From contig CAJAUM010000115.1 in the NCBI GenBank assembly GCA_903945175.1, positions 975-64,974 on the forward strand: 64,000 nt of DNA, read 5' to 3'. The notes below the pieces were generated by a model. The model made no database searches and was not told the DNA's origin. It saw only the letters and a list, made by a program, of their open reading frames with translations. Source of the DNA: an uncultured Bacteroidales bacterium (GTDB lineage: Bacteria; Bacteroidota; Bacteroidia; Bacteroidales; FEN-979). Positions 23,411-56,085 of the stretch are shown here, piece after piece; position 1 is the first letter of the stretch, and each line of letters starts with the position of its first letter. A program made the translations under genes and the position numbers.

Positions 23411-23425
23411 GTTCCCTTCAAACCG

Positions 23426-24086: not shown

Positions 24087-24132
24087 CAACATATTGAATC
24101 ATAAGTCAAGAATTATTATCAGAAATATTCAT

Positions 24133-24140
24133 TAACTTTG
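24133..24140 (+). promoter_or_regulatory. -7 promoter element (TAACTTTG) for ferritin
   Basis: TAnnTTTG match 24 nt upstream of the ATG at 24164. Confidence 0.45.
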
Positions 24141-24163
24141 TATTTATTCAAATCAAATAACAT

Positions 24164-25241: not shown

Positions 25242-25288
25242 GACTATTCAATTATAGAATGCAGATGGTGCCTGCTTTGCAGACATTT

Positions 25289-26347: not shown

Positions 26348-26366
26348 GGTTGACGTTTTCGGCAGG

Positions 26367-27161: not shown

Positions 27162-27219
27162 TTATTCTTGGAATGGTTGATCAAAGATAATGGTTTCAGG
27201 GAAATGAAAGAAAATAGAT

Positions 27220-27227
27220 TATCTTTG
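27220..27227 (+). promoter_or_regulatory. -7 promoter element (TATCTTTG) for the LytTR two-component operon
   Basis: TAnnTTTG match 19 nt upstream of the ATG at 27246. Confidence 0.4.
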
Positions 27228-27245
27228 AGTTAAAATGGGCGTATT

Positions 27246-28004: not shown

Positions 28005-28007
28005 GTC

Positions 28008-31000
28008 ATGTATTTCCGCCACGGCGCTTATGTTTTCCCGAAGGTTTTTTTTCAGATCATTGGAATAATTGTCTTCGTAGTTATTTCAATGAGTTTATCC
28101 GGCCAGAATTATTATACCCGGAATTTTACCATTGAAGATGGTTTGCCATCGAATACCGTTCGCGCGGTATTCAAGGATTCACGCGGCATCATGTGGGTTG
28201 GTACCTCGGCAGGCCTCTGCAGGTTTGACGGACGGGAATTCACCGTATATAACTCCGCCAACGGCCTTGGTGCGGAAAATATTTTCGACATTACGGAAGA
28301 CAACAAGGGGAATCTCTGGATTGGAGGAATGGGCTGCGGCATCTCCATGTTCGACGGGACAAAATTTACCAATTATGATGAGAAAAAAGGCCTGGTGTGC
28401 AATGATGTACGGCGGGTATGGTGGTCGAAGAAATTCAATATCCTGCTTGTCGGGACCAACTTGGGCTGCAGTGTTTTTACCGGGAAAGCGTTCTATTCCT
28501 TAACGGTAGCAGCAGTCGATAAAGAATATAAATCATTGGTTGTAATCGGATTTGAGGAAAAAACGGAGGTCATCAGAATTTTTAGTTACGGTTTCCGGAC
28601 AGTTTATTGGTATAACCCGGTAGCCCATAAGTTCACCAAAGATACGGTTGGGACCGTATTGAATATACAACCCAATTGTAATCCGATATCAGGAAAAAAC
28701 GGGGATACGATCTGGAGTTGGGGAAGAACCGGCATCCTGGTATGGAATAAAAAATGTATTGCAAAGTTTGACAGTTTGGGTCAGGTGTTTCATATGGCCG
28801 CAGATGATAAAAAAAACATCTGGATTGCCGCCTGGACAGAATTTCCTATTCCTGCGATGCCGGGAGGTTTTTATATGTATGACGGCACAAAGGTAGTTTC
28901 TCTGGGTAAACAGACCGGAATCACCGAACCCGGGGTCTGGACCGTGCTTTATGATTCAATATTTCATGCCGTCTGGGTAGGAACCCTTCGCCAGGGGCTT
29001 TTCAGGATGCCCTTGCCATTTGTCGAATGCTATGGACCATCCTGGTTCGGGTTATCTTCGCTGAAAATAAATGCCATCCACGCAGGCCGGGGCAACAACC
29101 TCTGGATCGCCACCTCCAAGGATATCATCAGGAAAAACCCGGATAGTGGCTTATACATATACCCGCGCGACGTGCTCAGAAAGATTCAGCATCTTGCTTA
29201 TTTAAAGTACTTTGACCTGAACTACATGCAATACAGGGATAAGGATGGCTCATTTGAGAAATATAAAAAACTGATTGCCGAAGGGAAATTTCCTTATCCA
29301 AATCCGTATCATCAAATTTTCCTTGAATGGGGAGAAGAGCGTATTTTACCTGCTGGTTCACTTTATGATCCAGCCTTGTATAACCAAGCCAGGCGGGATA
29401 TAATAAAAGAAAGCAAAGACACGACAGTCTTCGGTTTTTTAGGTATCGGTGAAGATTCCCGTCACAATATCTATGTCAAAGGAAGGTTTTTACTCATCCG
29501 GTTTAATGATAGGACAAATTTTATGCGTCCGGAAGTAATCCCCATTGCCCAAAATAATTCACTTTATATAATGGCGTTCGATAAGACAGACACATTATTT
29601 TGCTCTTCTTACTGGTTTTGGGGAATATCCAGGTGTGCCATTTTTCCTGAAGTGAAATATCCTGATCCGTTTTTTTCTTTAGCTGGCAAGGATAATGCCA
29701 CAGACCGCCCGGTGCGTATGTATTCCCGGGGTAATGAAATCTGGAGTGCAAGCAAGGTCGGGGGGCTTTTTCTTACTTTTGGGAGAAAAAATTACGCTTT
29801 CTGCAAGGCTGATTCGACCCTTCCCAGGAGTTTCAATGATCTTTGTTTCGATGGAGAGCACAATGTGATTGCCGGAGCGAACAACGGGGAGGTGTTTGTT
29901 TTTCGTTGGGATGGAGAAAAACTAAATCTACTTCACAGGTTAAACCGGAAAAACGGCATTGTTGGAAACAGCATTCGTTGGGTAAAAACCGACGGGCAAT
30001 CGAATTTATTTATCGGGACTAACGAGGGATTGAATCTGGTTGATCTGAAAGAGTTATATGCAGGGGGGAAGGCCAGGGTGAGATTTTTTTCAAAGGAGTC
30101 AGGGTATGTTGATCCAACTGCTGAATTTTCGGAAGTTGATTCAACCGGTGACCTTTGGATTGCATCAAGTAAACAGCTTTTCAGGTTGAACCGGAAACTT
30201 CTTTTTGACTATACTTCACATGTTGCAAATCTTTTGCTTACGGGGATGGAAATCAATCAGGTTCCCTTGAACCAGGTGGATGGATTTACTGCTGATCCAT
30301 GGTTCGGATCCCCGACAGAAAAACTGAAACTGACCCATGATCAGAACAATGTGATGTTTTATTTTGATGCCGTGAATTACCTGGATGCCAATCAGCAGCG
30401 GTTCAGGCACAGGCTTTTACCGGTAAACAAGCAATGGAGTGAGTATTCGTCCGACCGCAAGGCTTTTTTCCCAATGCTTCGTCCCGGTCATTACACCTTT
30501 GAGATTGAATCGTACAGTACCATTGATAACAGTCAAATCAGCCATTTATCCTATCAGTTCGTCATCCGGCCGCCCTTTTATTTTACCTGGTGGTTTATTC
30601 TTTTATCGATGTTGCTGATCACAGCCATTGCAATATCAGCCTGGCGACTTAGGATAAATCAGATCAGGAATCAGGAAAAACTTAAGGCCAGTATCCAGTT
30701 AGAGCTTACCAATATGGAGATGAAGGCGCTGAAAGCCCAAATGAATCCCCATTTTATTTTCAATGCCCTTAACTCCATTCAGAGCTATATCCTGAGCAGC
30801 AATATCGACAAGGCTTTGTATTATCTTTCCATGTTTTCAAAACTGGTGAGGAAAACCCTGGAGAATGCCACCAAGGAGTTCGTTCCCCTGGTGGAAGAGC
30901 TGGAATTCCTTAATTTTTACATTGAATTGGAGAAGATGCGGGTTGAAGGACAATTTAATTGTGTAACAGAATTGGATCCTGATCTCCCGCTCGACACCAC

Positions 31001-31349
31001 CATGATCCCACCCATGATCATTCAGCCTTTTGTGGAGAATGCGATCAAGCATGGACTCCTGAAACTCAAAGTGGTTGGGGTGCTTAGGGTACAGGTAAAA
31101 AAACTCAATGAGATCCAATACCAGATAGTCATTGAGGACAATGGCATTGGCCGGAGGAAAGCTGCGGAGTTAAAAAACAGCGAGGGGAAAGTGCATAATT
31201 CGAAGGGGCTTGACATCACCAACACCCGGATTCGCCTGTTGAATGCCAACGGGAATACGGGCAAATTCAGTATAACAACGATTGACCTGTTTGATGCTGA
31301 AGGCCATCCGGCCGGAACCCGGATTGAGGTTAATTTTCCGCTGGCTTAA
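28008..31349 (+). CDS. Sensor histidine kinase with periplasmic two-component-regulator propeller / Y_Y_Y domains and a LytS-type kinase core
   Basis: 1113 aa. Repeated propeller motifs (GLPSNTVRAVFKDSRGIMWVGT, etc.), one late TM helix, and NPHFIFNALNSIQ (His_kinase) plus an HATPase-like end. Confidence 0.85.
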   Translation: MYFRHGAYVFPKVFFQIIGIIVFVVISMSLSGQNYYTRNFTIEDGLPSNTVRAVFKDSRGIMWVGTSAGLCRFDGREFTVYNSANGLGAENIFDITEDNKGNLWIGGMGCGISMFDGTKFTNYDEKKGLVCNDVRRVWWSKKFNILLVGTNLGCSVFTGKAFYSLTVAAVDKEYKSLVVIGFEEKTEVIRIFSYGFRTVYWYNPVAHKFTKDTVGTVLNIQPNCNPISGKNGDTIWSWGRTGILVWNKKCIAKFDSLGQVFHMAADDKKNIWIAAWTEFPIPAMPGGFYMYDGTKVVSLGKQTGITEPGVWTVLYDSIFHAVWVGTLRQGLFRMPLPFVECYGPSWFGLSSLKINAIHAGRGNNLWIATSKDIIRKNPDSGLYIYPRDVLRKIQHLAYLKYFDLNYMQYRDKDGSFEKYKKLIAEGKFPYPNPYHQIFLEWGEERILPAGSLYDPALYNQARRDIIKESKDTTVFGFLGIGEDSRHNIYVKGRFLLIRFNDRTNFMRPEVIPIAQNNSLYIMAFDKTDTLFCSSYWFWGISRCAIFPEVKYPDPFFSLAGKDNATDRPVRMYSRGNEIWSASKVGGLFLTFGRKNYAFCKADSTLPRSFNDLCFDGEHNVIAGANNGEVFVFRWDGEKLNLLHRLNRKNGIVGNSIRWVKTDGQSNLFIGTNEGLNLVDLKELYAGGKARVRFFSKESGYVDPTAEFSEVDSTGDLWIASSKQLFRLNRKLLFDYTSHVANLLLTGMEINQVPLNQVDGFTADPWFGSPTEKLKLTHDQNNVMFYFDAVNYLDANQQRFRHRLLPVNKQWSEYSSDRKAFFPMLRPGHYTFEIESYSTIDNSQISHLSYQFVIRPPFYFTWWFILLSMLLITAIAISAWRLRINQIRNQEKLKASIQLELTNMEMKALKAQMNPHFIFNALNSIQSYILSSNIDKALYYLSMFSKLVRKTLENATKEFVPLVEELEFLNFYIELEKMRVEGQFNCVTELDPDLPLDTTMIPPMIIQPFVENAIKHGLLKLKVVGVLRVQVKKLNEIQYQIVIEDNGIGRRKAAELKNSEGKVHNSKGLDITNTRIRLLNANGNTGKFSITTIDLFDAEGHPAGTRIEVNFPLA

Positions 31350-31355
31350 AAAGGG

Positions 31356-31697
31356 TTACGCCAGTTGTGTCTGCTCTTCCATTGCAACACAGGGGGCCTG
31401 GTTACCAGCAGGCGCATATAAATTAATCCACCTCTCCTTCATCGCTTCCAATTGTTCATAGGAGGATGTGTTTTTCAGTACCTCGTATTGCAGGATTTTG
31501 GGTTTTACCGACTGCATGAAGTACCGCAAGGGGATATTGGGCTCATTGGGTCTGAAATGAGCAAGCATGGCCTGATGGAGGTTGTCAGTCACCCCTACGA
31601 AACGGCAGTTTGCTGATGAGAAAATGGCATAAACGGCCGTAGATACCGGCAAATTCACCTTTTCAGAATTTAACAGGATTTGTATTGCTTCATTCAT
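31356..31697 (-). CDS. Hypothetical protein (weak, degenerate GIY-YIG-like N-terminus)
   Basis: 113-aa ORF. AVYAIFSSANCRFVGVTDNLHQAMLAHF loosely resembles a GIY-x10-YIG nuclease core but lacks the tyrosines. The function is not supported. Confidence 0.4.
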   Translation of the reverse strand: MNEAIQILLNSEKVNLPVSTAVYAIFSSANCRFVGVTDNLHQAMLAHFRPNEPNIPLRYFMQSVKPKILQYEVLKNTSSYEQLEAMKERWINLYAPAGNQAPCVAMEEQTQLA

Positions 31698-32015
31698 GGT
31701 TATTACGTTTTTTGATAATGTTCATCCCCATAATAAAACTATAACATAGCTATATAAGTCTGCAAATATATAACAATCTTAATGCACTCGGTTACGAATT
31801 TATTTAACGTGGGGTTTTATATGTGAATGAATACTTCTATACAAGGAACGCACAATTAGTGGAGGAGAATTATAATCAACCCCAAATTGACATATATCAA
31901 TCCATTCCTTGATATTTGACAATACTGTTTTGTTATTTCACACCTAATCAATTCATTAAAATATAAAATTGGAATCAGCTTGATATGTCAGGTTAGGTTG
32001 TTTCAGATTAATTTT

Positions 32016-32023
32016 TAACTTTG
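32016..32023 (+). promoter_or_regulatory. -7 promoter element (TAACTTTG) for the nuo operon
   Basis: TAnnTTTG match 27 nt upstream of the nuoA ATG, at the end of a 352-nt AT-rich intergenic region. Confidence 0.45.
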
Positions 32024-32049
32024 CCCCCACTTCTGTTAAAAGATTCACT

Positions 32050-32400
32050 ATGAGTGCTGAAAGTCTGATTCTTTTCTTTATTGTTGGGGCCTTTCTGGTG
32101 GGGTTTGCCATTGTGTTCGCCACCCTTGTTGCACCCACTTCAACAAACCCGCAAAAGGCTGAACCTTACGAATGTGGTATCCCCACCGAGGGACTGACCT
32201 GGCTTCAGTTCAATGTGGGGTATTACCTTTTTGCCATCATCTTTTTGGTTTTCGATGTGGAAAGTGTCTTTATCTTCCCATGGGCTGTGGTGATGAAAGA
32301 ACTTGGCATGGTTGCCTTTATTGAGATCATCATCTTCTTTTTTGTTCTCGGATTGGGTCTGTTATATGCCTGGAAGAAAGGAGCTTTGAAATGGGAATAA
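32050..32400 (+). CDS. nuoA: NADH-quinone oxidoreductase subunit A
   Basis: 116 aa, three TM helices, YECG motif, first gene of the operon. Confidence 0.9.
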
Positions 32401-32942
32401 AAAATATGAAAGAGGCGGATTTCCGCGATAATGAAAGTCTGGAGCTATTTAAGCAATCGGGTGGTAATATTCTGATGACCACCATCGATGCCGTGATTGA
32501 CTGGGGCCGTTCAAATTCCATCTGGCCGCTCACCTTTGCCACCAGTTGCTGCGGCATTGAAATGATGGCTACCGGCGCTTCGCGCCACGATTTTGCCCGG
32601 TTCGGGATTGAAGTGTACCGTGCCTCTCCCCGTCAGGCCGATGTTATTGTGGTGGCCGGAACCGTTGTTAACAAAATGGCCCCGGTGCTCAAACGGTTGT
32701 ACGACCAAATGTCGGATCCCAAATATGTGATCGCCATGGGCGCCTGCGCAGTTTCCGGCGGCCCCTTCTTTTACAATACCTATCACGTTGTACGTGGCGT
32801 TGACCACGTGATTCCGGTCGATGTGTACGTTCCCGGCTGCCCGCCGCGTCCCGAAGCCCTGCTCTATGGCGTGATGCAGCTTCAGCGCAAAATAAAACTG
32901 GAATCCATGACCAATCCAAGAAAAACCGAAGAATTAAAATAG
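32391..32942 (+). CDS. nuoB: NADH-quinone oxidoreductase subunit B
   Basis: [17 protein letters not shown] and PGCPPRPE (N2 cluster ligands). Confidence 0.95.
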
Positions 32943-32955
32943 ATAATTTCCCAAG

Positions 32956-33414
32956 ATGGATAACGCAGCATTGAAGGAGCGTATTCTGGGTCTGGTTCCC
33001 GACGCAGAATACCAGGAGAACAAGCAATTCCTTACCTTCATCATCCCGCCGGCAAAAATGCATGACCTCGCCTTCAAACTCAAGTCTGAGGCAGACCTTG
33101 CATTCGATTTTCTCTTCTGCCTTAGCGGAGTTGACATGGTGAAATTCCTTGAAGTGGTTTATCACCTCGAATCAACTTCCCACAAGCATCAACTGGAACT
33201 CAAAGTGCGCACGGAAGATCGTGTTAACGGAGCTGTTGACACCGTTTGCGATATATGGAGAACGGCCGAGTTTCATGAACGGGAGGCCTTCGACCTTGTT
33301 GGTATCCGGTTCAACAACCATCCCGACCTCCGGAGGATTTTCCTCGAAGAGGGCTGGCTTGGTCACCCGCTCCGTAAAGATTATGTTGATGAAGTTAACA
33401 TCGTAGAACTTTAA
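32956..33414 (+). CDS. nuoC: NADH-quinone oxidoreductase subunit C
   Basis: WRTAEFHEREAFDLVGIRFNNHPDLRRI motif. Confidence 0.9.
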   Translation: MDNAALKERILGLVPDAEYQENKQFLTFIIPPAKMHDLAFKLKSEADLAFDFLFCLSGVDMVKFLEVVYHLESTSHKHQLELKVRTEDRVNGAVDTVCDIWRTAEFHEREAFDLVGIRFNNHPDLRRIFLEEGWLGHPLRKDYVDEVNIVEL

Positions 33415-33417
33415 GGT

Positions 33418-34545
33418 ATGAAAGAAGTCATTCACCTGCCTGTCCAGAATGTTGAGGAGGAGGAATACCATATTAATATGGGGCCGCAGCACCCATCCAC
33501 CCATGGCGTGCTCCGGTTGGTTGTTTCACTCCAGGGAGAGATCGTAAAAAGCCTGAAGCCGCATTGCGGGTATATCCACCGCGGCATTGAGAAGATGTGT
33601 GAGAAGGATACCTATCCCCAGATCATCCATCTCACCGACCGGATGGATTATCTCTCAGCCCACATCAACAACCACGCTGTATGTATGCTGGTTGAGAAGG
33701 CACTCGAAGTCGAAGTCCCAGAAAGGGTAAAATACATCCGGACCATTGTCGATGAACTCAACCGGATTGCCTCCCACCAGTTATGGTGGTGCAGCTTCGG
33801 CATGGATATGGGCGGACTGACCTGTTTTTTCTATGGATTGCGCGACCGTGAAAAAATTCTCGATATTTTCGAAGAATCATTCGGGTCACGATTGCTTCAC
33901 TCTTATTACACGCCGGGCGGACTCATGATGGACATTCACCCTGACTTCCAGAAGAATGTCAAGGCTTTTATCAAGTATTTCCGCAAGAAGATCAAGGACT
34001 ATGATGAACTGCTTACCGGCAACATCATCATGCAGCTGCGTACCCAGGGTATCGGAATTCTTTCAAAGGAAGATGCCATCAGTTACGGGGTAACAGGTCC
34101 GTCGGGCCGTGCCTCGGGGTTTGCCTGCGATGTTCGCAAACATCACCCGTATGGGGTATACGATAAAGCAGATTTCAAGGAAATTCTCGGAACCAAAGGC
34201 GATACCTTTGAACGCTACATGATGAGAATGGACGAAATGCTTGAATCGATGAAGATCATCGAGCAGCTCATTGACAATATTCCTGCCGGGGACCACACCG
34301 CAAAGATGAAAGCAGTGCTCAAACTTCCTGCCGGTGAGTATTTCCAACGCGTGGAGGCAGCCCGTGGTGAATTGGGGGTGTATGTTGTCAGCGATGGCAA
34401 TAAAAGCCCGTATCGCATGAAATTCCGTTCCCCGAATTTCTCCAACCTGAGTGTACTTGATCATATCAGCCGTGGGTGTAAGATTGCTGACCTGGTAGCC
34501 ATTGGGGCCTCATTAGACTATGTTATTCCGGATATTGACAGATAA
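33418..34545 (+). CDS. nuoD: NADH-quinone oxidoreductase subunit D
   Basis: NMGPQHPSTHGVLRL near the N-terminus and VIPDIDR at the C-terminus. Confidence 0.95.
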   Translation: MKEVIHLPVQNVEEEEYHINMGPQHPSTHGVLRLVVSLQGEIVKSLKPHCGYIHRGIEKMCEKDTYPQIIHLTDRMDYLSAHINNHAVCMLVEKALEVEVPERVKYIRTIVDELNRIASHQLWWCSFGMDMGGLTCFFYGLRDREKILDIFEESFGSRLLHSYYTPGGLMMDIHPDFQKNVKAFIKYFRKKIKDYDELLTGNIIMQLRTQGIGILSKEDAISYGVTGPSGRASGFACDVRKHHPYGVYDKADFKEILGTKGDTFERYMMRMDEMLESMKIIEQLIDNIPAGDHTAKMKAVLKLPAGEYFQRVEAARGELGVYVVSDGNKSPYRMKFRSPNFSNLSVLDHISRGCKIADLVAIGASLDYVIPDIDR

Positions 34546-34557
34546 TAAAATTTATCT

Positions 34558-35646
34558 ATGAACTTTAGCATATACGACTTTACGTCATTCACCCAATGGA
34601 TCGATAAGTTCCTCTACGACAACCTGCCGGCCTTCTGGGCCATCGCCGTGGAAATGACCCTCATCGGCCTGGTTATCCTCGTTTTTTATGCGCTGGTCGG
34701 GCTTTTCCTGGTGTATGCAGAGCGAAAGGTTTGTGCATTCATGCAGAACCGGGTCGGACCAAACCGGGTTGGCCCGTTTGGATTTTTCCAGACAATCGCC
34801 GACTTTGTTAAGCTTATGATGAAGGAGTTGGTGTACATCAAGAATGCAGACAAACTGCTGTTCAACATTGCACCATTCATAATCATCATAGCTTCATTCA
34901 TGGCCATTGCAGCCATCCCGTTTGCCAAGGGGCTGCATGCCATTGATTTTGATATAGGGGTCCTTTATGTGATTGCTGTATCATCTCTGGGTGTTGTGGG
35001 AATCCTGCTGGCCGGCTGGTCGAGCAACAACAAGTATTCACTCATCGGCGCCATGCGTTCAGGAGCCCAGATTGTGAGCTATGAACTCTCGGTAGGGCTG
35101 TCGCTGGTCACCATCATCATCCTGGCTGGTACCATGCAGTTTTCGGCCATTGTAGAGGGACAGGCCAATGGTTGGTTTATATTTAAAGGGCACATCCCTG
35201 CTTTTATCGCTTTTATTATTTTCCTGATCTCCAGCACTGCTGAAACAAATCGGGGTCCTTTTGACCTGGCCGAAGCCGAATCGGAACTTACAGCCGGGTT
35301 CCATACCGAATATTCAGGGATCAAGTTCGCCTTTTTCTTTCTGGCTGAATATATGAACATGTTTATTGTGGCCTCCATTGCAGCAACCGTATTCCTGGGC
35401 GGCTGGATGCCGTTCCATGTCAGCGGATGGGCGGGATTCAACCACATCATGGATTTTATCCCGCCATTTGTATGGTATATCGGGAAAACCTTCTTTATTA
35501 TCTGGATTATGATGTGGTTCAAATGGACCTTCCCGAGATTAAGGATCGACCAGTTATTGACACTGGAATGGAAATATCTATTACCCATCAACCTGGTCAA
35601 TATTCTTATCATGGCATTTATCGTATTAATGGGTTGGCATTTTTAG
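34558..35646 (+). CDS. nuoH: NADH-quinone oxidoreductase subunit H
   Basis: [19 protein letters not shown] and [14 protein letters not shown] motifs. Confidence 0.95.
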
Positions 35647-35652
35647 AAAACT

Positions 35653-36135
35653 ATGAACAGCTTTTTCGAATATTTTACAGATATCTACCGCGCGGTTAAA
35701 TCTCTCCTTACGGGGATGAAGGTAACCGGGAGATACTTCTTCAGCCCCTGGGAGATCGTAACCCAGCAGTACCCGGAGAACCGGAAGACCCTGAAAATGT
35801 ACGACCGGTTCAAGGGCGAAGTGATCATGCCACACAATGAGCACAACGAACATCGCTGTACCGGATGCGGGATATGTGAAACGGCTTGCCCGAACGGAAC
35901 CATCGAGATCATTCAGGCAAAGATCGATATGCCCGACGGCAAAAAGAAACGCATCATCGACAAGCATATTTACCACCTGGGGATGTGCACCTTTTGCGGG
36001 TTGTGCATCAAAGCGTGCCCCTCGGATGCACTGGCCTGGGGACAGGAGTTCGAACATGCGGTATTTGACCGGTCGAAACTGAACAAGACCTTGAATCAAC
36101 CCGGATCATCCATCATTAAAGATATTGTAGAATGA
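35653..36135 (+). CDS. nuoI: NADH-quinone oxidoreductase subunit I
   Basis: Two 4Fe-4S motifs, CTGCGICETACP and CTFCGLCIKACP. Confidence 0.92.
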   Translation: MNSFFEYFTDIYRAVKSLLTGMKVTGRYFFSPWEIVTQQYPENRKTLKMYDRFKGEVIMPHNEHNEHRCTGCGICETACPNGTIEIIQAKIDMPDGKKKRIIDKHIYHLGMCTFCGLCIKACPSDALAWGQEFEHAVFDRSKLNKTLNQPGSSIIKDIVE

Positions 36136-36644
36136 CACCAAATCAATTGATGTTTGCGATATTTTCCGCAGTCATTATCATCTTTTCCATCCTGACTGTG
36201 ACCAGCCGGCGTATTCTGCGGGCAGCCATCTTTCTCTTGTTTGTACTTGTTGCAACAGGTGGCTTGTACTTTCTGCTGAGGTTTAACTACCTTGCAGCCA
36301 TTCAGCTTACCCTGTATGCCGGCGGCATCGTGGTCATGATCATTTTTTCGATCCTTCTTACAAGTCATATTGCAGAAAAACTGGAAGCGCCGGGTCTGAA
36401 AAAGATCATCCCTGCTTTTTTTGCTGCGGCCGGAGGCGCCTTGATTACCATTGCAACCATCCTGCAGCACAAATTTCCTACTGAGGTTATTTCGGGCAGC
36501 GAACGTACCGACATCCGGTTGATCGCCAAAAGCCTTATCAGCACAGAAAAATTCGGATATGCACTGCCCTTCGAAGTGATCAGCATCCTGTTGCTCGCAG
36601 CGATGGTGGGGGCTATCATCCTTGCAAAAAAACGTAAAGATTAA
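36132..36644 (+). CDS. nuoJ: NADH-quinone oxidoreductase subunit J
   Basis: 170-aa membrane protein, operon position, YAGGIVVM motif. Confidence 0.85.
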   Translation: MTPNQLMFAIFSAVIIIFSILTVTSRRILRAAIFLLFVLVATGGLYFLLRFNYLAAIQLTLYAGGIVVMIIFSILLTSHIAEKLEAPGLKKIIPAFFAAAGGALITIATILQHKFPTEVISGSERTDIRLIAKSLISTEKFGYALPFEVISILLLAAMVGAIILAKKRKD

Positions 36645-36666
36645 TTCACAATAATACCAAGACGAT

Positions 36667-36984
36667 ATGTTTGAAGGCGTTCCTTTAACCTGGTTTTTAA
36701 TCACCGGCACCATCATGTTCTTTGTCGGTATTTATGGATTTCTGGTCAGGAAAAACCTGATCACAATCCTCATGTCGACAGAGCTGATCCTGAATTCGGT
36801 CAACATCAACTTTGTTGCATTTAATAAAATCCTTTACCCGGATCATCTGGAGGGGATGTTTTTCAGCATTTTCATCATTGCAGTTGCCGCAGCGGAAGCA
36901 TCGGTGGCCATCGCCATCATCATCAACATCTACCGCCGCCTGGTCGATATCAATGTGGAGAAGATGAATGAAATGAAATATTAG
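36667..36984 (+). CDS. nuoK: NADH-quinone oxidoreductase subunit K
   Basis: 105 aa, three TM helices, conserved Glu residues (STELILNSVN, AAAEASVAIAI). Confidence 0.9.
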   Translation: MFEGVPLTWFLITGTIMFFVGIYGFLVRKNLITILMSTELILNSVNINFVAFNKILYPDHLEGMFFSIFIIAVAAAEASVAIAIIINIYRRLVDINVEKMNEMKY

Positions 36985-36990
36985 GGGTTA

Positions 36991-37060
36991 GGAATTAGCC
37001 AATAGCCATTAGGGAAAAGGAAAGCCTCAATGGCCAATGGCTAATGGCTAATGCCTTTTT
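36991..37060 (+). repeat. Inverted heptamer arrays forming an 18/20-bp hairpin plus T5 between nuoK and nuoL
   Basis: Left arm ggaattagccaatagccatt (36991-37010) pairs with right arm aatggctaatggctaatgcc (37036-37055). 25-nt loop, then ttttt. The units are AGCCAAT/AGCCATT and their complement AATGGCT. Confidence 0.9.
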
Positions 37061-37113
37061 AAACCAAATAACCGAATAAAATTATCAGAATAACAACGTA
37101 ATTCAAGCCTCAT

Positions 37114-39039
37114 ATGATCGATTTCTCTTACACTGTCTGGATCCTGCTGATACCGCTGATCATGTTCGTGGTGGTTGGCCTGTTCGGGAACCGTTTTAAA
37201 CCGCTGGTCTCGGGAATCGCCGGAACTGCCGGCTTGTTTGTTATATGGATCCTGTCGCTGATCACGGCCTACAAGTACTTTTTTGTACTCGAAAAGGCTG
37301 CCGATGGTTCGTTTCAGAAATTCCTGGCGTTTAACGTGCGCTGGCTGAACCTGACCGATACCCTGCATATTGACATGGGCGTCCTTCTTGATCCAATCTC
37401 CATCATGATGCTGATCGTGATCACGACCGTATCATTTATGGTGCATGTTTATTCAATCGGATATATGGATGGAGAGAAGGGATTCATGCGCTTTTTTGCA
37501 ACCCTGTCCTTGTTCAGTTTCTCGATGCTCGGGCTGGTGGTGGCCACCAACATCTTTCAGATGTATATTTTCTGGGAGCTGGTAGGCGTTTCATCCTATC
37601 TGCTGATCGGATTTTATTATACCAGGGATTCCGCAGTTTCAGCCTCAAAAAAAGCATTTATTGTTACCCGGTTTGCTGACCTTGGATTCCTCATCGGGAT
37701 CCTGATGCTTTCCTTTGCAACCGGAACCTTCGATTTTCTGACCCTTACCGGACCGAATAGCCCTGCATTTTCCTCGGGAACCGGGATCATGTTCCTTGGA
37801 TTGTCAACCATGACCTGGTCCATGATCTTTGTCTTCATGGGAGGCGCCGGTAAATCGGCCATGTTCCCGCTGCACATCTGGCTCCCCGATGCCATGGAAG
37901 GTCCCACCCCCGTGTCGGCCCTTATCCATGCGGCCACGATGGTTGTTGCCGGGGTATACCTGGTTGCGCGATTATTCCCGATTTACGTTTTTGCCGCCCC
38001 CGTAGCCCTTGATGTGGTGATGTATGTCGGGGCGTTCAGTTCAATTTTTGCCGCCGTCATCGCCTGTACCCAGTTTGATATCAAGCGTGTTCTGGCCTAT
38101 TCCACCATGTCGCAGATTGGTTTGATGATGTTCGCCCTGGGCGTTTCAGGATACGGTGGGCACGAGGGACTCGGATACATGGCCTCCATGTTCCACCTCT
38201 TCACCCATGCATTTTTTAAATCGCTGTTATTTCTTGGCGCAGGAGCCATCATTCATGCCGTTCACAGCAATGTAATGAATGAAATGGGGGGCTTGCGGAA
38301 ACACCTTCCCATCACCCATATCACCTTTCTCATTGCGTGTCTCGCCATAGCCGGTGTTCCGCCTTTATCGGGTTTCTTCAGCAAGGACGAGATCCTGGCT
38401 GCCGGCCACGAAAGAAGTTTGATGCTATATTGGGTTGAAATGATCGTATCGGGTTTAACGGCCTTCTATATGTTCCGCCTCTATTTCTCCATCTTCTGGG
38501 GGAAAGACAGACATTATCATCACACCCCGCATGAAGGATCAAAAACGATGACCATTCCATTGATGCTCCTTGCCATTGGGGCACTCCTCTCAGGGTTGAT
38601 TCCTTTCTCACATTTTGTGACAACCGACCGTTTGCCTTTCGCTGCCCACCTCGATTACGGCATTGCCATTCCGGCTGTGCTGGTTGGATTGCTTGGGATC
38701 GGCATCGCAATGGTTTTTTACAGAAAAGAGACCGATTTACCCGACAGGATTTACAATGCGCTGGGTGGTTTCTCAAAGGCAGCCTTTCACAAATTCTACA
38801 TTGATGAGGTGTACCTTTTTATCACCAAAAAAATCATATTTAACTACATTTCACGTCCGGTCGCCTGGTTCGACCGCCACATTGTGGATGGGGCCATGAA
38901 TGGTATCTCTTTTGTCACCAATGAGGCTGCCGATCGTATCAAAAGATTTCAATCGGGGCAACTGCAGCAGTATGCGCTTGTTTTGGTTTCGGGCGTTGTG
39001 CTCCTTACCCTGTTATTCACCTATTTAATGACCAACTAA
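37114..39039 (+). CDS. nuoL: NADH-quinone oxidoreductase subunit L
   Basis: 641-aa antiporter-like subunit (WLPDAMEGPTPVSALIHAATMV). Confidence 0.95.
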   Translation: MIDFSYTVWILLIPLIMFVVVGLFGNRFKPLVSGIAGTAGLFVIWILSLITAYKYFFVLEKAADGSFQKFLAFNVRWLNLTDTLHIDMGVLLDPISIMMLIVITTVSFMVHVYSIGYMDGEKGFMRFFATLSLFSFSMLGLVVATNIFQMYIFWELVGVSSYLLIGFYYTRDSAVSASKKAFIVTRFADLGFLIGILMLSFATGTFDFLTLTGPNSPAFSSGTGIMFLGLSTMTWSMIFVFMGGAGKSAMFPLHIWLPDAMEGPTPVSALIHAATMVVAGVYLVARLFPIYVFAAPVALDVVMYVGAFSSIFAAVIACTQFDIKRVLAYSTMSQIGLMMFALGVSGYGGHEGLGYMASMFHLFTHAFFKSLLFLGAGAIIHAVHSNVMNEMGGLRKHLPITHITFLIACLAIAGVPPLSGFFSKDEILAAGHERSLMLYWVEMIVSGLTAFYMFRLYFSIFWGKDRHYHHTPHEGSKTMTIPLMLLAIGALLSGLIPFSHFVTTDRLPFAAHLDYGIAIPAVLVGLLGIGIAMVFYRKETDLPDRIYNALGGFSKAAFHKFYIDEVYLFITKKIIFNYISRPVAWFDRHIVDGAMNGISFVTNEAADRIKRFQSGQLQQYALVLVSGVVLLTLLFTYLMTN

Positions 39040-39051
39040 TACCGTAGAAGA

Positions 39052-40563
39052 ATGAGTATTCTCACGCTATTTATCATTATACCGGTTCTCACCATAATTG
39101 GTATTTTATTCAGTAAATCCCATATGCAAGTCAAATGGGTGTCGGTGGTAGGCATGGGCCTGCAGTTGCTGAGCGCCATCGGACTGATCCTGCTGTACCT
39201 GGCCGAGCGTAAAGCCGGCAACATGGCCGAAGTACTCTTCGTACAGGATAATTTATGGTATGAAACCCTCAACATCCATTTTTACGTTGGCGTTGACGGC
39301 GTATCGGTAGCCATGATCGGGCTGACAGCCCTGGTGGTATTTGCCGGGATCTTTGCAAGCTGGGATATTGTTGACCTGCCCCGCGAGTTTTTCACCTCGT
39401 TGATTCTCTTAGCCTCAGGTGTATTTGGATTCTTTATCTCCCTCGACCTTTTTACCATGTTCCTTTTTTACGAACTGGCAGTAATCCCGATGTACCTGCT
39501 CATTGGTATCTGGGGAAGCGGCCCGCGGCATTATTCAGCCATGAAGCTGACATTGATGCTTATGGGCGGCTCAGCTTTCATTCTGTTGGGCATCATCGGC
39601 ATCTATATGCACTCTGCCCCCAATGGAGGCCCGCTGACCTTTGACCTTATCAAAATCTCCAAAGAAACAATTCCCCTGGATATTCAATGCTTTCTCTTCC
39701 CCTTTCTTTTTGTGGGATTTGGCGTATTGGGCGCATTGTTCCCTTTCCACACGTGGTCGCCCGATGGTCATGCCTCGGCGCCTACTGCCGTTTCGATGCT
39801 CCATGCCGGCGTGCTGATGAAACTGGGCGGATATGGTTGCTACCGTGTTGCTGTGTTTCTCCTTCCTGCAGCAGCGCATGAGCTGGGATGGATCTTCCTG
39901 ATCCTTGCTACCATTGGCGTCATTTACGGAGCATTCGGAGCAATCTGGCAGAAAGATCTTAAATACATCAATGCCTATTCTTCGGTGAGCCATTGCGCCC
40001 TGGTGCTTTTTGCCATCCTGATGTTCAACCAGACTGCCATGAACGGCGCCATCATGCAAATGATCTCCCACGGAATCATGACAGCCCTTTTCTTTGCATT
40101 AATCGGGATGATCTATGGAAGAACCCATACGCGGTATATCAACGAGATGGGCGGACTGATGAAGGTCATGCCCTTCCTGGCTGTCGCTTACGTAATCGCC
40201 GGTTTGGCCTCCCTCGGACTCCCGGGGTTCAGCGGTTTTGTGGCGGAGATGACCATTTTCATTGGCGCTTTCCAAAATGTTGATACCTTCCATCGCGTTG
40301 CTACCATCATCGCCGCCTCATCCATTGTCGTAACGGCGGTGTACGTGCTCAGAGTGGTGGGTATTCTATTGCTGGGAAAAATAAAGAATGAACATTTTGA
40401 AGAGATCAAGGATGCCAAATGGCATGATAAAATTAGCGTGGTTACACTCATTTTCGGGATTACCCTGATCGGAATGGCGCCACTCTGGCTTTCGGATATG
40501 ATAACAGGCGGACTGGGCCCCATTGTGCAGAAATTGCTTGCCGCGGCACCGATATTACCATAA
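39052..40563 (+). CDS. nuoM: NADH-quinone oxidoreductase subunit M
   Basis: 503-aa antiporter-like subunit (HTWSPDGHASAPTAVSMLHAGVLMKLG). Confidence 0.93.
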   Translation: MSILTLFIIIPVLTIIGILFSKSHMQVKWVSVVGMGLQLLSAIGLILLYLAERKAGNMAEVLFVQDNLWYETLNIHFYVGVDGVSVAMIGLTALVVFAGIFASWDIVDLPREFFTSLILLASGVFGFFISLDLFTMFLFYELAVIPMYLLIGIWGSGPRHYSAMKLTLMLMGGSAFILLGIIGIYMHSAPNGGPLTFDLIKISKETIPLDIQCFLFPFLFVGFGVLGALFPFHTWSPDGHASAPTAVSMLHAGVLMKLGGYGCYRVAVFLLPAAAHELGWIFLILATIGVIYGAFGAIWQKDLKYINAYSSVSHCALVLFAILMFNQTAMNGAIMQMISHGIMTALFFALIGMIYGRTHTRYINEMGGLMKVMPFLAVAYVIAGLASLGLPGFSGFVAEMTIFIGAFQNVDTFHRVATIIAASSIVVTAVYVLRVVGILLLGKIKNEHFEEIKDAKWHDKISVVTLIFGITLIGMAPLWLSDMITGGLGPIVQKLLAAAPILP

Positions 40564-40613
40564 TTTACGATGTACGATTTTAGATTTATTAAGTAATTAA
40601 AAAGTTCTGAACG

Positions 40614-42023
40614 ATGTTGATAATGAGACATGAATTGCTGCTGATTGCCATCACAGTAATCTTATTGATTGTCGAAATTTTTCTGCCCAATACACAGAAG
40701 CGCAAGATCATTTTACCGGCTATCCTGTTAATGGCTGCCGTGACGGTCCTGGGATTTTTTCCGGGAACACCCGGAATCCTGTTTGGCGGTATGTTTCAAT
40801 CGTCACAACTCACCATGATGCTCAAGAATATCCTGAACATCGGTGTGCTGATCATATTTATCCAGTCGGTCGATTGGCTTAAACAAGATCAGAATAAGGA
40901 AAAGGTAAGCGAATTTTTCCTGCTGATGCTTTCAACGCTGATCGGGATGAACTTTATGATATCTTCGGGCGATTTCCTGATGTTCTACATCGGCCTGGAA
41001 TTGGCAACTATTCCGGTTGCAGCATTGGCCGCCTATGAAAGACTGAAAGAAAAATCAGCCGAGGCAGGGGTTAAACTGATCTTCATCTCTGCACTTTCGT
41101 CCGGCATTTTATTGTACGGGTTATCCATGATTTATGGTACTACAGGAACAATGTATTTCGTTGATGTAGCCCCGATGATAACCGGTGCGCCGCTGCAGGT
41201 ACTCGCCTTCATCTTCTTCTTTGCAGGCATGGCCTTTAAAATTTCCCTGGTTCCCTTCCATCTTTGGACTGCCGACGTTTATGAAGGAGCGCCTGTCAAT
41301 GTAACCTCGTATCTGTCGGTGATTTCGAAGGGAGCCGCCGTATTTATTTTCACCATCATTCTGTATACTGTATTTTCCAAGATTGCCGTGATGTGGAGTG
41401 AATTGCTCTATGTCATTACACTTCTGACCATAACGGTTGGTAACCTGTTTGCCATGCGCCAGCAGAACCTCAAGCGGTTCCTTGCTTTTTCATCCATAGC
41501 CCAGGCCGGATTCATTCTGTTGGGTGTCATCGGACAAAGCCAGCTCGGGATGACCACGGTCATTTATTTTGCCCTGGTGTACATCTTCTCTAACCTGGGA
41601 GCCTTTGGCGTGGTTGGAATTATATCAAACCGCACAGGCAAAGAGAACATCAACGATTATGACGGACTTTACCGGACCAACCCCAATCTGAGCCTGGTCA
41701 TGATGCTTGCGCTCTTTTCATTGGCCGGTATTCCACCCCTTGCAGGGTTTTTCGGAAAATTTTTCCTGTTTACAGCCGCAGCAAAACAGGGATATTACTG
41801 GCTGGTTCTCATTGCCCTTGTCAACACCATCATTTCACTATACTATTATTTACTGGTGATAAAGGCGATGTTGTTAAATAACAGCGATCAGCCAATTGCT
41901 AAATTTAAAAGCGACGGTTACACCCGGCTTGGACTACTTCTGTGTGTTGCCGGTATTGTTATCATTGGTTTTACCAGTTCAGTTTATGAGTTGGTATTCA
42001 ACCTGAGTTTTGGATTGAATTAA
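40614..42023 (+). CDS. nuoN: NADH-quinone oxidoreductase subunit N
   Basis: 469-aa antiporter-like subunit (FHLWTADVYEGAPVNVTSYLSV). Last gene of the operon. Confidence 0.92.
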   Translation: MLIMRHELLLIAITVILLIVEIFLPNTQKRKIILPAILLMAAVTVLGFFPGTPGILFGGMFQSSQLTMMLKNILNIGVLIIFIQSVDWLKQDQNKEKVSEFFLLMLSTLIGMNFMISSGDFLMFYIGLELATIPVAALAAYERLKEKSAEAGVKLIFISALSSGILLYGLSMIYGTTGTMYFVDVAPMITGAPLQVLAFIFFFAGMAFKISLVPFHLWTADVYEGAPVNVTSYLSVISKGAAVFIFTIILYTVFSKIAVMWSELLYVITLLTITVGNLFAMRQQNLKRFLAFSSIAQAGFILLGVIGQSQLGMTTVIYFALVYIFSNLGAFGVVGIISNRTGKENINDYDGLYRTNPNLSLVMMLALFSLAGIPPLAGFFGKFFLFTAAAKQGYYWLVLIALVNTIISLYYYLLVIKAMLLNNSDQPIAKFKSDGYTRLGLLLCVAGIVIIGFTSSVYELVFNLSFGLN

Positions 42024-48455: not shown

Positions 48456-48483
48456 CGTGATGCGTGAAGCGTGACACGTGACA
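48456..48483 (+). repeat. Heptamer tandem array (CGTGATG CGTGAAG CGTGACA CGTGACA) 3 nt after the tonB stop
   Basis: Read directly. It belongs to the GTGAC/GTCAC class. Confidence 0.85.
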
Positions 48484-55633: not shown

Positions 55634-56020
55634 ATGGAAGTGGAAAAGAAAAAAATTGTTTCCTATAAAGATCTTGAGGTCTGGAAAAAGGGGGTCCGAT
55701 TTACCATTGAAATCTACAGAATTACCAGCGAGTTTCCAAGTAGGGAACAATTCGGGCTTACCAATCAGTTGCGCAGGGCCGCATCCTCTATCCCTGCCAA
55801 TATTGCAGAAGGATATGGTCGTGAGAGCACGAAAAATTATATTCAGTTCCTTAAAACTGCCAGAGGTTCATTGAATGAAGTCGAAACTTTTCTTTATATA
55901 GGATTTGAATTGGAATATCTTAATAAACAAACCCTTGACAACTTGATTATTAAAACCACTGAACTTGGAAAAATGATGAATAGCCTGATCAAAAAACTAA
56001 ACCCTAACCCCACTGCCTAA
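55634..56020 (+). CDS. Four-helix-bundle protein (23S rRNA intervening-sequence protein / Avd family)
   Basis: [10 protein letters not shown]...[30 protein letters not shown]...[16 protein letters not shown] are hallmark motifs of the family. Confidence 0.9.
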
Positions 56021-56045
56021 TGCCTACTGCCTATTGCCTATTGCC
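56011..56045 (-). repeat. Inverted copy of the GGCAGTA/GGCAATA array (5 units)
   Basis: cactgcc taatgcc tactgcc tattgcc tattgcc. Its reverse complement matches array units 13-17 (55551-55585) at 33/35 positions. It contains the TAA stop of the four-helix-bundle gene. Confidence 0.95.
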
Positions 56046-56085
56046 TTATCCCAATCAAGATTAACAAAACATCACACACATAACT

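What the first reader, a model, noticed from the sequence alone, without database searches (positions are those of the whole stretch)
36991..37060. Gene-less inverted heptamer hairpin with a T-run inside the nuo operon (between nuoK and nuoL)
Seen: all other nuo junctions are 49 nt or less, and most are 22 nt or less or overlap. nuoK-nuoL is 129 nt and contains two inverted heptamer arrays (AGCCAAT/AGCCATT against AATGGCT) forming an 18/20-bp stem with a 25-nt loop, followed by TTTTT. That is the shape of an intrinsic terminator in the sense direction of the operon. Inference: (a) a miniature or empty relative of the cassette at 55467-56045, with the same architecture minus the ORF, and (b) a possible attenuator or processing site that would lower nuoLMN relative to nuoA-K.
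Basis: partly seen in the sequence, partly recalled or inferred. Interest (0 to 1): 0.62.

Follow-up and report, generated by a model that had tools for sequence, protein, structure and literature searches.

The report
Empty heptamer-repeat hairpin in nuo operon
The hairpin between nuoK and nuoL is real, but it is most likely not a terminator: it looks like the gene-less form of a repeat-flanked insertion, common in this lake Bacteroidales lineage, whose full form carries a small four-helix-bundle gene also found in 23S rRNA intervening sequences.

Summary
The 129-nt nuoK-nuoL spacer carries two inverted arrays of four 7-nt units (36983-37010 and 37029-37056). They start at the nuoK stop codon and fold at -32.8 kcal/mol, with only 2 of 200 shuffles as stable. 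Period-7 arrays are a lineage trait: 8 in the window, against 0-1 for every other period from 4 to 12.

Inference (a) is supported. A metagenome contig (L151) has nearly the same arms around a 127-aa four-helix-bundle gene (TIGR02436, the 23S-rRNA-IVS/Avd-like family), inserted at the sdhA stop codon. About 20 of 80 loci with (AATGGCT)n arrays are gene-less hairpins like this one.

Inference (b), a terminator or attenuator, is not supported. The stem and loop are not terminator-shaped. The T-run is seen only in orthologous copies of this hairpin. A 936-nt metatranscriptome contig runs straight through. No Bacteroidetes-type promoter motif is evident before nuoL.

Among genomes with 96-100% identical NuoK, the site holds three unrelated hairpin families, direct-only arrays, or only 18 nt.

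Best reading: a tolerated, probably selfish, IVS-like element that is co-transcribed with the operon. RNase III cleavage of its stem is plausible but untested.

The parts
36667..36984 (+). nuoK. Its stop codon TAG (36982-36984) is part of the first heptamer unit.
   Evidence: NCBIfam NuoK models; sequence
36983..37010 (+). Left arm: four 7-nt units, AGGGGTT AGGAATT AGCCAAT AGCCATT. TAG recurs every 7 nt, so there is a stop in all three frames.
37011..37028 (+). Loop, AGGGAAAAGGAAAGCCTC: 18 nt in the 28-nt register, 25 nt in the 21-nt register. No ORF.
37029..37056 (+). Right arm: AATGGCC AATGGCT AATGGCT AATGCCT, the complement of the left arm. Shares the exact 20-mer AATGGCTAATGGCTAATGCC (27 of 30 by eye) with the right arm of the four-helix-bundle cassette in L151.
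37056..37060 (+). T-run (TTTTT). It is kept, as TTTTTT, in the orthologous copies of this hairpin (L232, L226), and is absent after the L005/L010 hairpins and the unrelated hairpins at this site.
37061..37113 (+). A-rich, unstructured leader of nuoL, left intact by the insertion. No Bacteroidetes-type promoter motif (TAnnTTTG) seen by inspection.
37114..39039 (+). nuoL
   Evidence: NCBIfam NF005141
55466..55627 (+). Related element, left arm of the full cassette: (GGCARTA) x 22.6. It supplies the stop codon of the upstream hydrogenase-beta-like ORF (54433-55488).
55634..56020 (+). Related element, cargo: a 128-aa four-helix-bundle protein (TIGR02436 / PF05635, the 23S rRNA IVS protein family; weak Avd match).
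56009..56047 (+). Related element, right arm of the full cassette: (TAYTGCC)n, complementary to the left arm (33 nt, 94%).

Best explanation
The structure is the gene-less form of a repeat-armed insertion that is common in this freshwater Bacteroidales lineage. It consists of two inverted arrays of a 7-nt unit: AGSSWTT on the left, starting in the stop codon of the upstream gene, and its complement on the right. The full form has a ~125-aa four-helix-bundle gene between the arms. That gene belongs to the family found inside 23S rRNA intervening sequences and is related to Avd of diversity-generating retroelements.

Shown:
- The arms are built by period-7 repetition.
- Arms of this kind travel with the gene to different loci.
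- A filled cassette with almost the same arms exists.
- Gene-less hairpins with these arms far outnumber filled ones.
- Arm copy number changes between strains.
- The nuoK-nuoL site has been occupied by three unrelated hairpin families, or by none, in genomes with nearly identical NuoK.
- RNA from the lakes includes a contig that runs through the hairpin.

Inferred:
- The element is tolerated rather than needed. It sits in one of the few nuo junctions that can take extra sequence, directly after a stop codon and 53 nt before the next start. It spreads or persists through its own dynamics: slippage, inverted duplication or transposition, and loss of the gene by decay.
- In the nuo mRNA it folds into a 21-28 bp stem that RNA polymerase passes.
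- By analogy with IVS stems, this stem is a likely RNase III substrate. Cleavage would split nuoA-K from nuoLMN without silencing either part. That cleavage is the least secure step.
For: - Anatomy and non-randomness.
- Cassette ORF is TIGR02436.
- The same GGCARTA/TAYTGCC arms flank orthologues at the hydrogenase junction (L081, L083, L084). L083 and L084 carry the identical protein P0053 yet have 4 and 10 right-arm units. The same arms also flank a 75%-identical homologue in a different context, tRNA-MeaB (L086-L088).
- L151: sdhA ... AAA TAG CCATTAGCCATTAGCCATTAGGGATTAGGGATT - 127-aa TIGR02436 gene - CCCTTAATGGCTAATGGCTAATGGCTAATGCCC - sdhB.
- L151 and the window share the exact 20-mer AATGGCTAATGGCTAATGCC, found in only 2 of 80 (AATGGCT)3 loci. 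They also share the arm junction AGCCATTAGGGA, found in only 2 of 80; among those 80 loci only L151 carries both.
- 21 of 32 inverted (AATGGCT)n/(AGCCATT)n array pairs, in about 20 of the 80 loci, have 70 nt or less between arms and no ORF. Four loci hold a four-helix-bundle match, and in two of them (L149, L151) it lies between the arms. The L149 copy is truncated at profile position 93 of 118, and the remainder looks frameshifted on reading the sequence. P0067 in the L001 genome is truncated to 92 aa.
- Turnover at the site.
- An empty-site allele (18 nt) occurs in L004 and in runs X8 and X28.
- Read-through RNA contig 36548-37483 in X25. The run behaves as true RNA, with depth ranging from 0.2 to 58 along the window.
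- Coxiella IVS precedent: an S23p ORF, a 28-bp terminal stem cut by RNase III, and heptamer repeats of variable copy number (PMC4990558).
Against: - No filled cassette was found at any nuoK-nuoL junction: 80 species and 27 further contigs, longest spacer 201 nt. Descent from a filled copy at this site is therefore not shown. The reverse order, a hairpin first and a gene inserted later, or independent origin by slippage plus fold-back, is not excluded.
- Sister genomes show GTGACRC direct arrays next to GTGACRC/GTCACGC perfect palindromes (L229 against L217). This suggests hairpins can arise in place.
- Stable hairpins of three unrelated families at the same spot could mean that a hairpin there is selected.
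- The T-run is kept, and is one T longer, in the orthologous copies L232 and L226.
- RNA evidence comes only from assembled contigs. There are no read ends, so partial termination or cleavage cannot be measured.
- RNase III cleavage is pure analogy.
Confidence: 0.55

Rival explanations
1. A selected RNA element. A stable stem-loop directly after nuoK is kept by selection because it sets the relative stability of the nuoA-K and nuoLMN parts of the transcript, as a 3'-exonuclease barrier or an RNase III site. Its sequence is free to change as long as it pairs.
For: - Strong hairpins (z below -3) of three unrelated sequence families lie at the same position in close relatives, and further ones in more distant species: window, L001, L002, L008, L005, L010, L014, L063, L075.
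- The two arms stay matched while the unit differs between genomes: AGCCATT/AATGGCT in the window, AGCGATT/AATCRCT in L005, AGGGATT/AAYCCCT in L010.
- L232 keeps -32.7 kcal/mol despite changes.
- The highest RNA contig depth in the operon lies over the hairpin.
Against: - About 10 of 27 close relatives have direct-only arrays with no significant fold (z -1 to -1.5). L004 and the X8/X28 strains have only 18 nt.
- In the orthologous copy L226 five right-arm changes are uncompensated, and stability falls to -24.8.
- Mismatches are often A.C on the sense strand, so the antisense fold is stronger: L005 -29.4 against -40.1, L010 -39.5 against -52.5. Across 10 hairpins there is no bias towards the sense strand.
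- Similar arrays also occupy the nuoD-H and nuoM-N junctions and lie inside coding genes.
Confidence: 0.2
2. A pure simple-sequence repeat. A heptamer array arose by replication slippage at the nuoK stop codon and was later duplicated in inverted orientation by a fold-back or template switch. The likeness to four-helix-bundle cassette arms is convergence on a favoured unit.
For: - Period-7 arrays are abundant and mostly direct in this lineage.
- Copy number varies between strains.
- L229 (direct GTGACRC) and L217 (the same array followed at once by its reverse complement, centre GTGACATGTCAC) look like before and after a fold-back.
- (AATGGCT)n arrays occur in contigs from 33 to 70% GC, so the unit is reused widely.
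- Heptamers are the commonest long SSR class in bacteria (Mrazek 2007, as cited in PMC4679880).
Against: The window and L151 share more than the unit: the exact 20-mer that includes the degenerate terminal unit AATGCC, the AGCCATT-to-AGGGA transition in the left arm, and the start at a TAG stop codon. Each marker occurs in only 2 of 80 loci with the same unit. Arms demonstrably move together with the gene.
Confidence: 0.12
3. An intrinsic terminator or attenuator. The hairpin plus T-run stops a fraction of RNA polymerases and lowers nuoLMN relative to nuoA-K.
For: - A stable stem is followed directly by TTTTT.
- The T-run is kept as TTTTTT in orthologues L232 and L226.
- Mean RNA contig depth is somewhat lower downstream than upstream in X25, roughly 2.4 against 3.9. 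This is my own average of the bins, and contig depth is a poor measure.
Against: - The 21-28 bp mismatched, AU-rich stem with an 18-25 nt loop is outside terminator geometry. The scan finds only a 6-bp sub-hairpin, and site counts equal chance.
- There is no T-run after the hairpins of L001, L002, L008, L005, L010, L217 or L209.
- The RNA contig runs through, and depth stays at 5-7 for 700 nt beyond the site.
- A ribosome stopping at the TAG would melt the base of the stem.
- nuoLMN have no evident promoter of their own.
Confidence: 0.08
4. A protein-binding array. The heptamers are iterated binding sites, on DNA or RNA, for a lineage-specific factor, possibly the four-helix-bundle protein itself, giving global post-transcriptional control.
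For: - Iterated 7-nt units next to start or stop codons have been proposed as regulator sites in Beggiatoaceae, Nostoc and Geobacter (PMC4679880, bioRxiv 10.1101/2022.06.06.494920, PMC2700814).
- Avd-like four-helix bundles bind nucleic acid in DGRs (from my own knowledge of the family).
Against: - The units differ completely between sites and between sister genomes: AGCCATT, GTGACGC, GGCARTA, TGACGAR, C-runs. One factor cannot read them all.
- The same units also sit inside coding sequences, translated in frame.
Confidence: 0.05

Closest known systems
23S rRNA intervening sequences (IVS) carrying an S23p / four-helix-bundle ORF (Coxiella, Leptospira, Salmonella)
   Same: Terminal inverted repeats form a stem of more than 20 bp around a PF05635/TIGR02436 ORF. 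In Coxiella, tandem heptamers (GACAGAT) of variable copy number lie beside the ORF, the ORF decays while the RNA stem stays, and RNase III cuts in the stem (PMC4990558). The window's cassette at 55466-56047 and the L151 cassette have the same plan.
   Different: Here the host RNA is an mRNA operon spacer, not an rRNA helix. The arms consist entirely of heptamer arrays and begin in a stop codon. The nuoK-nuoL copy has no ORF. RNase III cleavage has not been tested.
Long heptamer simple-sequence repeats: cyanobacterial STRR, and TAACTGA repeats of Beggiatoaceae, Cyanobacteria and Bacteroidetes
   Same: Period-7 tandem arrays, mostly intergenic, abut or overlap stop and start codons. They give stop codons in all three frames, vary in copy number, and have a patchy phylogenetic spread that includes Bacteroidetes (PMC4679880; STRR from my own knowledge of Mazel et al. 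1990).
   Different: Those are described as direct repeats of one favoured unit. Here two arrays lie in inverted orientation and make a hairpin. Many different units coexist in one genome, and there is a link to a cargo gene.
Paired heptanucleotide elements of Geobacter metallireducens
   Same: Multicopy elements made of four or five tandem heptanucleotides, some drawn as two strands looping back, both between and inside genes, of unknown function (PMC2700814).
   Different: Different units (GGACCGG, MTYCTGA) in a high-GC deltaproteobacterium. No cargo gene was reported. They were interpreted there as regulator binding sites.
REP / BIME / REPIN elements of Enterobacteria and Pseudomonas
   Same: Short palindromic extragenic elements that sit between genes of an operon, are transcribed, can protect upstream mRNA, and behave as non-autonomous mobile DNA (PMC3116915 was listed; their properties are from my own knowledge).
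   Different: REPs are not built of tandem heptamers and depend on RAYT transposases. No RAYT and no multicopy identical sequence was seen in these 64 kb.
Rho-independent terminator
   Same: A hairpin followed by a run of T on the sense strand.
   Different: Stem length, loop size, GC content, T-run length, lack of conservation and the read-through RNA all depart from the class.

Membership tests
Intrinsic (Rho-independent) terminator | Compact GC-rich stem (about 5-14 bp) with a 3-8 nt loop | tested here: not met
   21-28 bp AU-rich stem with mismatches and an 18-25 nt loop. The scan reports only an internal 6-bp sub-hairpin, and site counts equal shuffle expectation.
Intrinsic (Rho-independent) terminator | U-tract directly after the stem, conserved with the hairpin | tested here: inconclusive
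   TTTTT at 37056-37060. It is kept (TTTTTT) in the orthologous copies L232 and L226 but is absent after the hairpins of L001, L002, L008, L005, L010, L217 and L209.
Intrinsic (Rho-independent) terminator | RNA 3' ends and a coverage drop at the site | tested here: not met
   A 936-nt RNA contig covers 36548-37483 without mismatch. Depth is 7.0 over the site and 5.4 in the next bin. Only contigs were available, not reads, so partial termination cannot be excluded.
Heptamer simple-sequence repeat (LSSR / STRR-like) | Tandem head-to-tail copies of a 7-nt unit, three or more units | tested here: met
   TRF reports period 7 with 3.7 copies. There are four units in each arm.
Heptamer simple-sequence repeat (LSSR / STRR-like) | Genome-wide excess of period 7 over other periods | tested here: met
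   Window: 8 arrays against 0-1 for other periods. 80 related loci: 24 against 6 or fewer.
Heptamer simple-sequence repeat (LSSR / STRR-like) | Copy-number change between strains (slippage) | tested here: inconclusive
   Seen for cassette arms: 22.6 left-arm units in the window against 4 in L081, and 4 against 10 right-arm units in L083 and L084, which carry the identical protein. It was not seen for the nuoK-nuoL hairpin in four DNA runs or in L227, L230 and L234.
IVS-type four-helix-bundle cassette | Terminal inverted repeats able to form a stem of 20 bp or more | tested here: met
   19/21 and 22/28 complementary arms. The arms nearly match those of the filled cassette L151.
IVS-type four-helix-bundle cassette | PF05635 / TIGR02436 ORF between the arms | tested here: not met
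   The loop is 18-25 nt and holds no ORF. For this reason I file it as a gene-less derivative or relative, not as a cassette.
IVS-type four-helix-bundle cassette | Excision of the stem by RNase III | not testable with these tools
   Only assembled RNA contigs were available. No read ends and no enzyme assay.
MITE / REP-like non-autonomous mobile element | Several near-identical dispersed copies in one genome, target-site duplication, a cognate transposase | tested here: inconclusive
   Only one copy of this arm pair lies in the 64 kb. A 35-nt look-alike of the left arm with foreign flanks is present in runs X1 and X8. No target duplication is evident, and the whole genome is not to hand.
Any described RNA family (Rfam 15) | Covariance-model match at the gathering score | tested here: not met
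   No match in the window at gathering thresholds. The only sub-threshold hit is a spurious miRNA-precursor match (21 bits against 97) on the hairpin.

The most novel reading that the evidence does not exclude
Heptamer-armed hairpins are the non-autonomous members of a widespread, undescribed class of mobile insertions. The full members carry the four-helix-bundle (23S-IVS / Avd-like) gene. They settle at stop codons inside operons as well as in rRNA helices. They are made harmless because the host's RNase III excises the stem from the transcript, and the four-helix-bundle protein has a role in their spread or maintenance.
Probability: 0.2. Interest if true: 0.75.

Novelty: new variant of a known kind. 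Interest (0 to 1): 0.5.

Why it matters
- Annotation. It warns against calling every hairpin-plus-T-run inside an operon a terminator. In this lineage such hairpins are repeat-born insertions that come and go between strains.
- The IVS protein family. It ties two poorly understood things together: the heptamer tandem repeats long noted in Cyanobacteria, Beggiatoaceae, Geobacter and some Bacteroidetes, and the enigmatic four-helix-bundle 'IVS protein' family. It does so by showing filled and empty versions with the same arms in respiratory operons (nuo, sdh, a hydrogenase-like operon). If the RNase III analogy holds, IVS-like excision would apply to mRNAs and not only to rRNA. That gives a testable handle on what the IVS protein family is for.
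- Metagenome assembly. These arrays are places where metagenome and metatranscriptome assemblies break.

Tried and rejected
- Rfam search of the region and of the whole window found nothing.
- Read-level RNA evidence was not available. Only Logan contigs exist for the six metatranscriptome runs found, so 3'/5' ends could not be mapped.
- A four-helix-bundle gene at any nuo junction of the 80 related species was looked for and not found.
- The test 'G.U pairs favour the sense strand' gave no sense bias, so it does not support a selected sense-RNA structure.
- 'Heptamer units always carry a stop codon' was checked by eye on the nuo-junction arrays. It held for only about half, so I did not use it as an argument.
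- Literature searches linking four-helix-bundle genes to flanking heptamers found only the Coxiella IVS paper. Searches for the cyanobacterial small-dispersed-repeat literature found no usable text (one search was a malformed query).
- Conservation in strain X11/X13 was rejected as evidence of constraint. The whole nuoK-plus-spacer block is about 99% identical there, and divergence starts only from about 37200, which points to a recombination tract.

Full report
**1. What is there.**
The window comes from an uncultured freshwater Bacteroidales/Prolixibacteraceae-like genome. The closest loci are lake and sediment MAGs, and the sequence is present in at least 20 lake metagenome runs. It carries an 11-gene nuoABCDHIJKLMN operon at 32050-42023 (Pfam labels).

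All junctions are tight except K-L (129 nt) and M-N (50 nt). The K-L spacer starts with a period-7 structure that begins inside the nuoK stop codon.
- Left arm: AGGGGTT AGGAATT AGCCAAT AGCCATT (36983-37010).
- Loop: 18 nt.
- Right arm: AATGGCC AATGGCT AATGGCT AATGCCT (37029-37056).
- Then TTTTT, followed by a 53-nt A-rich leader before the nuoL ATG.

The fold is -32.8 kcal/mol, with 2 of 200 dinucleotide shuffles as stable.

**2. It is one instance of a lineage-wide habit.**
With one fixed criterion the window holds 8 period-7 arrays against 0-1 for each other period from 4 to 12, and none in a shuffled window. The 80 related nuo loci hold 24 against 6 or fewer.

The units differ from site to site: GTCACGC, CATTGGT, TGACGAR, GGCARTA and AGCCAWT.
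- Some arrays abut or contain the stop codon of the upstream gene (atpB, the hydrogenase-beta-like ORF, nuoK).
- Some lie in frame inside ispG, tsaB and the hydrogenase-like ORF.
- In relatives, arrays also occupy the nuoD-H and nuoM-N junctions.

**3. Relation to the cassette at 55467-56045.**
The ORF there is a TIGR02436 / PF05635 four-helix-bundle protein. The family is named after 23S rRNA intervening sequences and is distantly related to DGR Avd.
- The gene with the same GGCARTA/TAYTGCC arms is at the orthologous junction in L081 (the genome of L005) and in L083/L084. It is truncated to 92 aa in the genome of L001.
- Arm lengths differ widely: 22.6 left-arm units in the window against 4 in L081, and 4 against 10 right-arm units in L083 and L084, which carry the identical protein.
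- A 75%-identical homologue sits in a quite different place, between a tRNA gene and meaB (L086-L088). It still has GGCAATA and TATTGCC arms. The arms therefore belong to the gene, not to the site.

**4. A filled cassette with the nuoK-nuoL arms.**
A scan of metagenome contigs for (AATGGCT)3, a pattern the window itself does not contain, gave 80 loci.
- 21 of the 32 inverted array pairs, in about 20 loci, have 70 nt or less between the arms and no gene.
- Four loci hold a four-helix-bundle match, and in two of them (L149, L151) it lies between the arms.
- L151 (46% GC, like the window) reads: sdhA ... AAA TAG CCATTAGCCATTAGCCATTAGGGATTAGGGATT - 127-aa TIGR02436 gene - CCCTTAATGGCTAATGGCTAATGGCTAATGCCC - sdhB. 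Its protein is 54% identical to the window's.
- Its right arm shares the exact 20-mer AATGGCTAATGGCTAATGCC with window 37036-37055 (27 of 30 by eye). This includes the odd terminal unit AATGCC.
- Its left arm shares the AGCCATT-to-AGGGA transition and the start at a TAG stop codon.
- Each of these two markers occurs in only 2 of the 80 loci, and among the 80 only L151 carries both.
- L149 has the same arms around a copy truncated at profile position 93 of 118. On reading the sequence, the remainder continues in another frame.

This is the strongest evidence that the nuoK-nuoL hairpin is the empty form of such a cassette. It does not tell whether empties arise by loss of the gene or whether genes enter pre-existing hairpins.

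**5. History at the site.**
Across 80 species most nuoK-nuoL spacers are 9-35 nt, but about 20 hold heptamer or octamer arrays.
- L005 (NuoL 85% identical) and L010 (76%) have hairpins of the same AGSSWTT type, starting at a TAG stop. Their middle bases differ, and the right arm follows the left: AGCGATT/AATCRCT and AGGGATT/AAYCCCT.
- L013 looks to me like a remnant of the same type.

Contigs whose NuoK protein is 96-100% identical fall into groups:
- the window type, orthologous in L226-L228, L230-L232 and L234;
- GTGACRC/GTCACGC hairpins (L235, L217, L218, L220; weak in L215);
- C-run/G-run hairpins (L209, L210, L212, L214, L216);
- direct GTGACRC plus AATCGTA arrays without a significant fold (L229, L233, L219, L221-L225, L211, L213).

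L004, and a co-occurring strain seen in runs X8 and X28, have only 18 nt. The site is therefore a hot spot with fast turnover.

In the orthologous copies the left arm is nearly unchanged. The right arm of L226 has five uncompensated changes, and its stability falls from -32.6 to -24.8 kcal/mol. Sense and antisense folds show no preference for the sense strand. These points argue against strong selection on a sense-RNA structure. The recurrence of strong hairpins keeps that rival alive.

**6. Terminator or attenuator?**
- The geometry is wrong: the stem is long, mismatched and AU-rich, and the loop is large.
- The consensus scan finds only a 6-bp internal hairpin, and site counts match chance.
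- The T-run is seen only in orthologous copies of this hairpin (window, L232, L226). It is absent after the L005/L010 hairpins and the other hairpin families.
- In metatranscriptome run X25 a 936-nt contig covers 36548-37483 with no mismatch, at depth 7.0, the highest in the operon. The next bins are 5.4 and 3.6.
- That run behaves as RNA, not contaminating DNA. Depth along 15300-33000 ranges from 0.2 to 58, with atpE highest.
- The leader shows no Bacteroidetes-type promoter motif (my own reading).
- A ribosome stopping at TAG would open the base of the stem.

Strong termination is therefore unlikely. A small effect cannot be excluded with contig data.

**7. How it most likely works.**
Shown:
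- It is a repeat-built inverted pair.
- It is related to cassette arms.
- It is dispensable in sister strains.
- It is co-transcribed with the operon.

Inferred:
- It is tolerated because it lies directly after a stop codon and leaves the nuoL initiation region free. All arrays at this junction abut the stop codon and never the start.
- Its arms are made and reshaped by slippage and inverted duplication or transfer.
- In RNA the 21-28 bp stem is the kind of substrate RNase III cuts in IVS elements (PMC4990558). That would separate nuoA-K from nuoLMN mRNA without loss of either. This last step is analogy only.

**8. What is known.**
- Heptamer tandem repeats are documented in Cyanobacteria, Beggiatoaceae, a few Bacteroidetes and Geobacter, without an established function (PMC4679880, PMC2700814, bioRxiv 10.1101/2022.06.06.494920).
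- IVS elements with the four-helix-bundle ORF, terminal stems, RNase III excision and, in Coxiella, variable heptamers are documented for 23S rRNA.
- In the searchable literature I found no description of heptamer-armed four-helix-bundle cassettes, or their empty hairpins, inside protein-coding operons. That search is limited.

I therefore rate this as a new variant of a known kind, of moderate interest.

Noticed in passing
window 19426-19470: A direct (TGACGAR) x 6.4 array begins with the atpB stop codon TGA and fills most of the atpB-atpE spacer. Metatranscriptome contig depth rises from 14-16 (atpB) to 58 (the atpE bin) in X25 and from 6.8 to 19.9 in X26. RNA contigs of both runs end at 19452, inside the array.
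   Followed up: partly
window 14024-14113 (ispG, - strand), 14873-14939 (tsaB, - strand), 54993-55020 (hydrogenase-beta-like ORF): Heptamer arrays lie in frame inside coding genes and add roughly 20-40 residues relative to the family profiles. In tsaB a 21-nt super-period (CATTGGT CATTGGT AATTGGT) keeps the reading frame free of stop codons.
   Followed up: partly
window 3762-3784, 14024-14113, 48456-48474, 54993-55020; L001, L235, L217 nuoK-nuoL spacers; L005 6551-6577: The unit GTCACGC/GCGTGAC recurs at many unrelated sites in this genome and its relatives. In sister species it forms the nuoK-nuoL hairpin. This suggests a dispersed repeat family of its own.
   Followed up: partly
window about 37100-37200: In the strain seen in runs X11 and X13 and in contig L227, nuoK plus the spacer is 99-100% identical to the window, but nuoL from about 37200 on is only 87-90% identical. 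A recombination boundary therefore lies 50-150 nt downstream of the hairpin.
   Followed up: partly
L209, L210, L212, L214, L216, L002, L008 (nuoK-nuoL spacers): A third, unrelated hairpin family (a C-run arm against a G-run arm, -40 to -51 kcal/mol) occupies the same position directly after the nuoK stop codon in close relatives.
   Followed up: partly
L094, L111, L126, L142 (soil metagenome contigs, 63-66% GC): (RATGGCT)n / (AGCCATY)n hairpins share a conserved core, GGCTAAACG..GGGTTAACCCC..CTTTAGCC, and occur twice per contig in two cases. This looks like a separate dispersed element family in high-GC bacteria.
   Followed up: no
L113, L124, L135 (35-38% GC; L113 carries a GCGATCGC site typical of cyanobacteria): The same inverted (AATGGCT)n/(AGCCATT)n arrays flank 150-470 nt of non-coding cargo, with no four-helix-bundle similarity.
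   Followed up: partly
runs X1 and X8, contig piece matching window 36983-37017: A low-depth contig carries a 35-nt look-alike of the left arm (4 differences) with unrelated flanks. A similar array therefore exists at another locus or in another organism in the same lakes.
   Followed up: no
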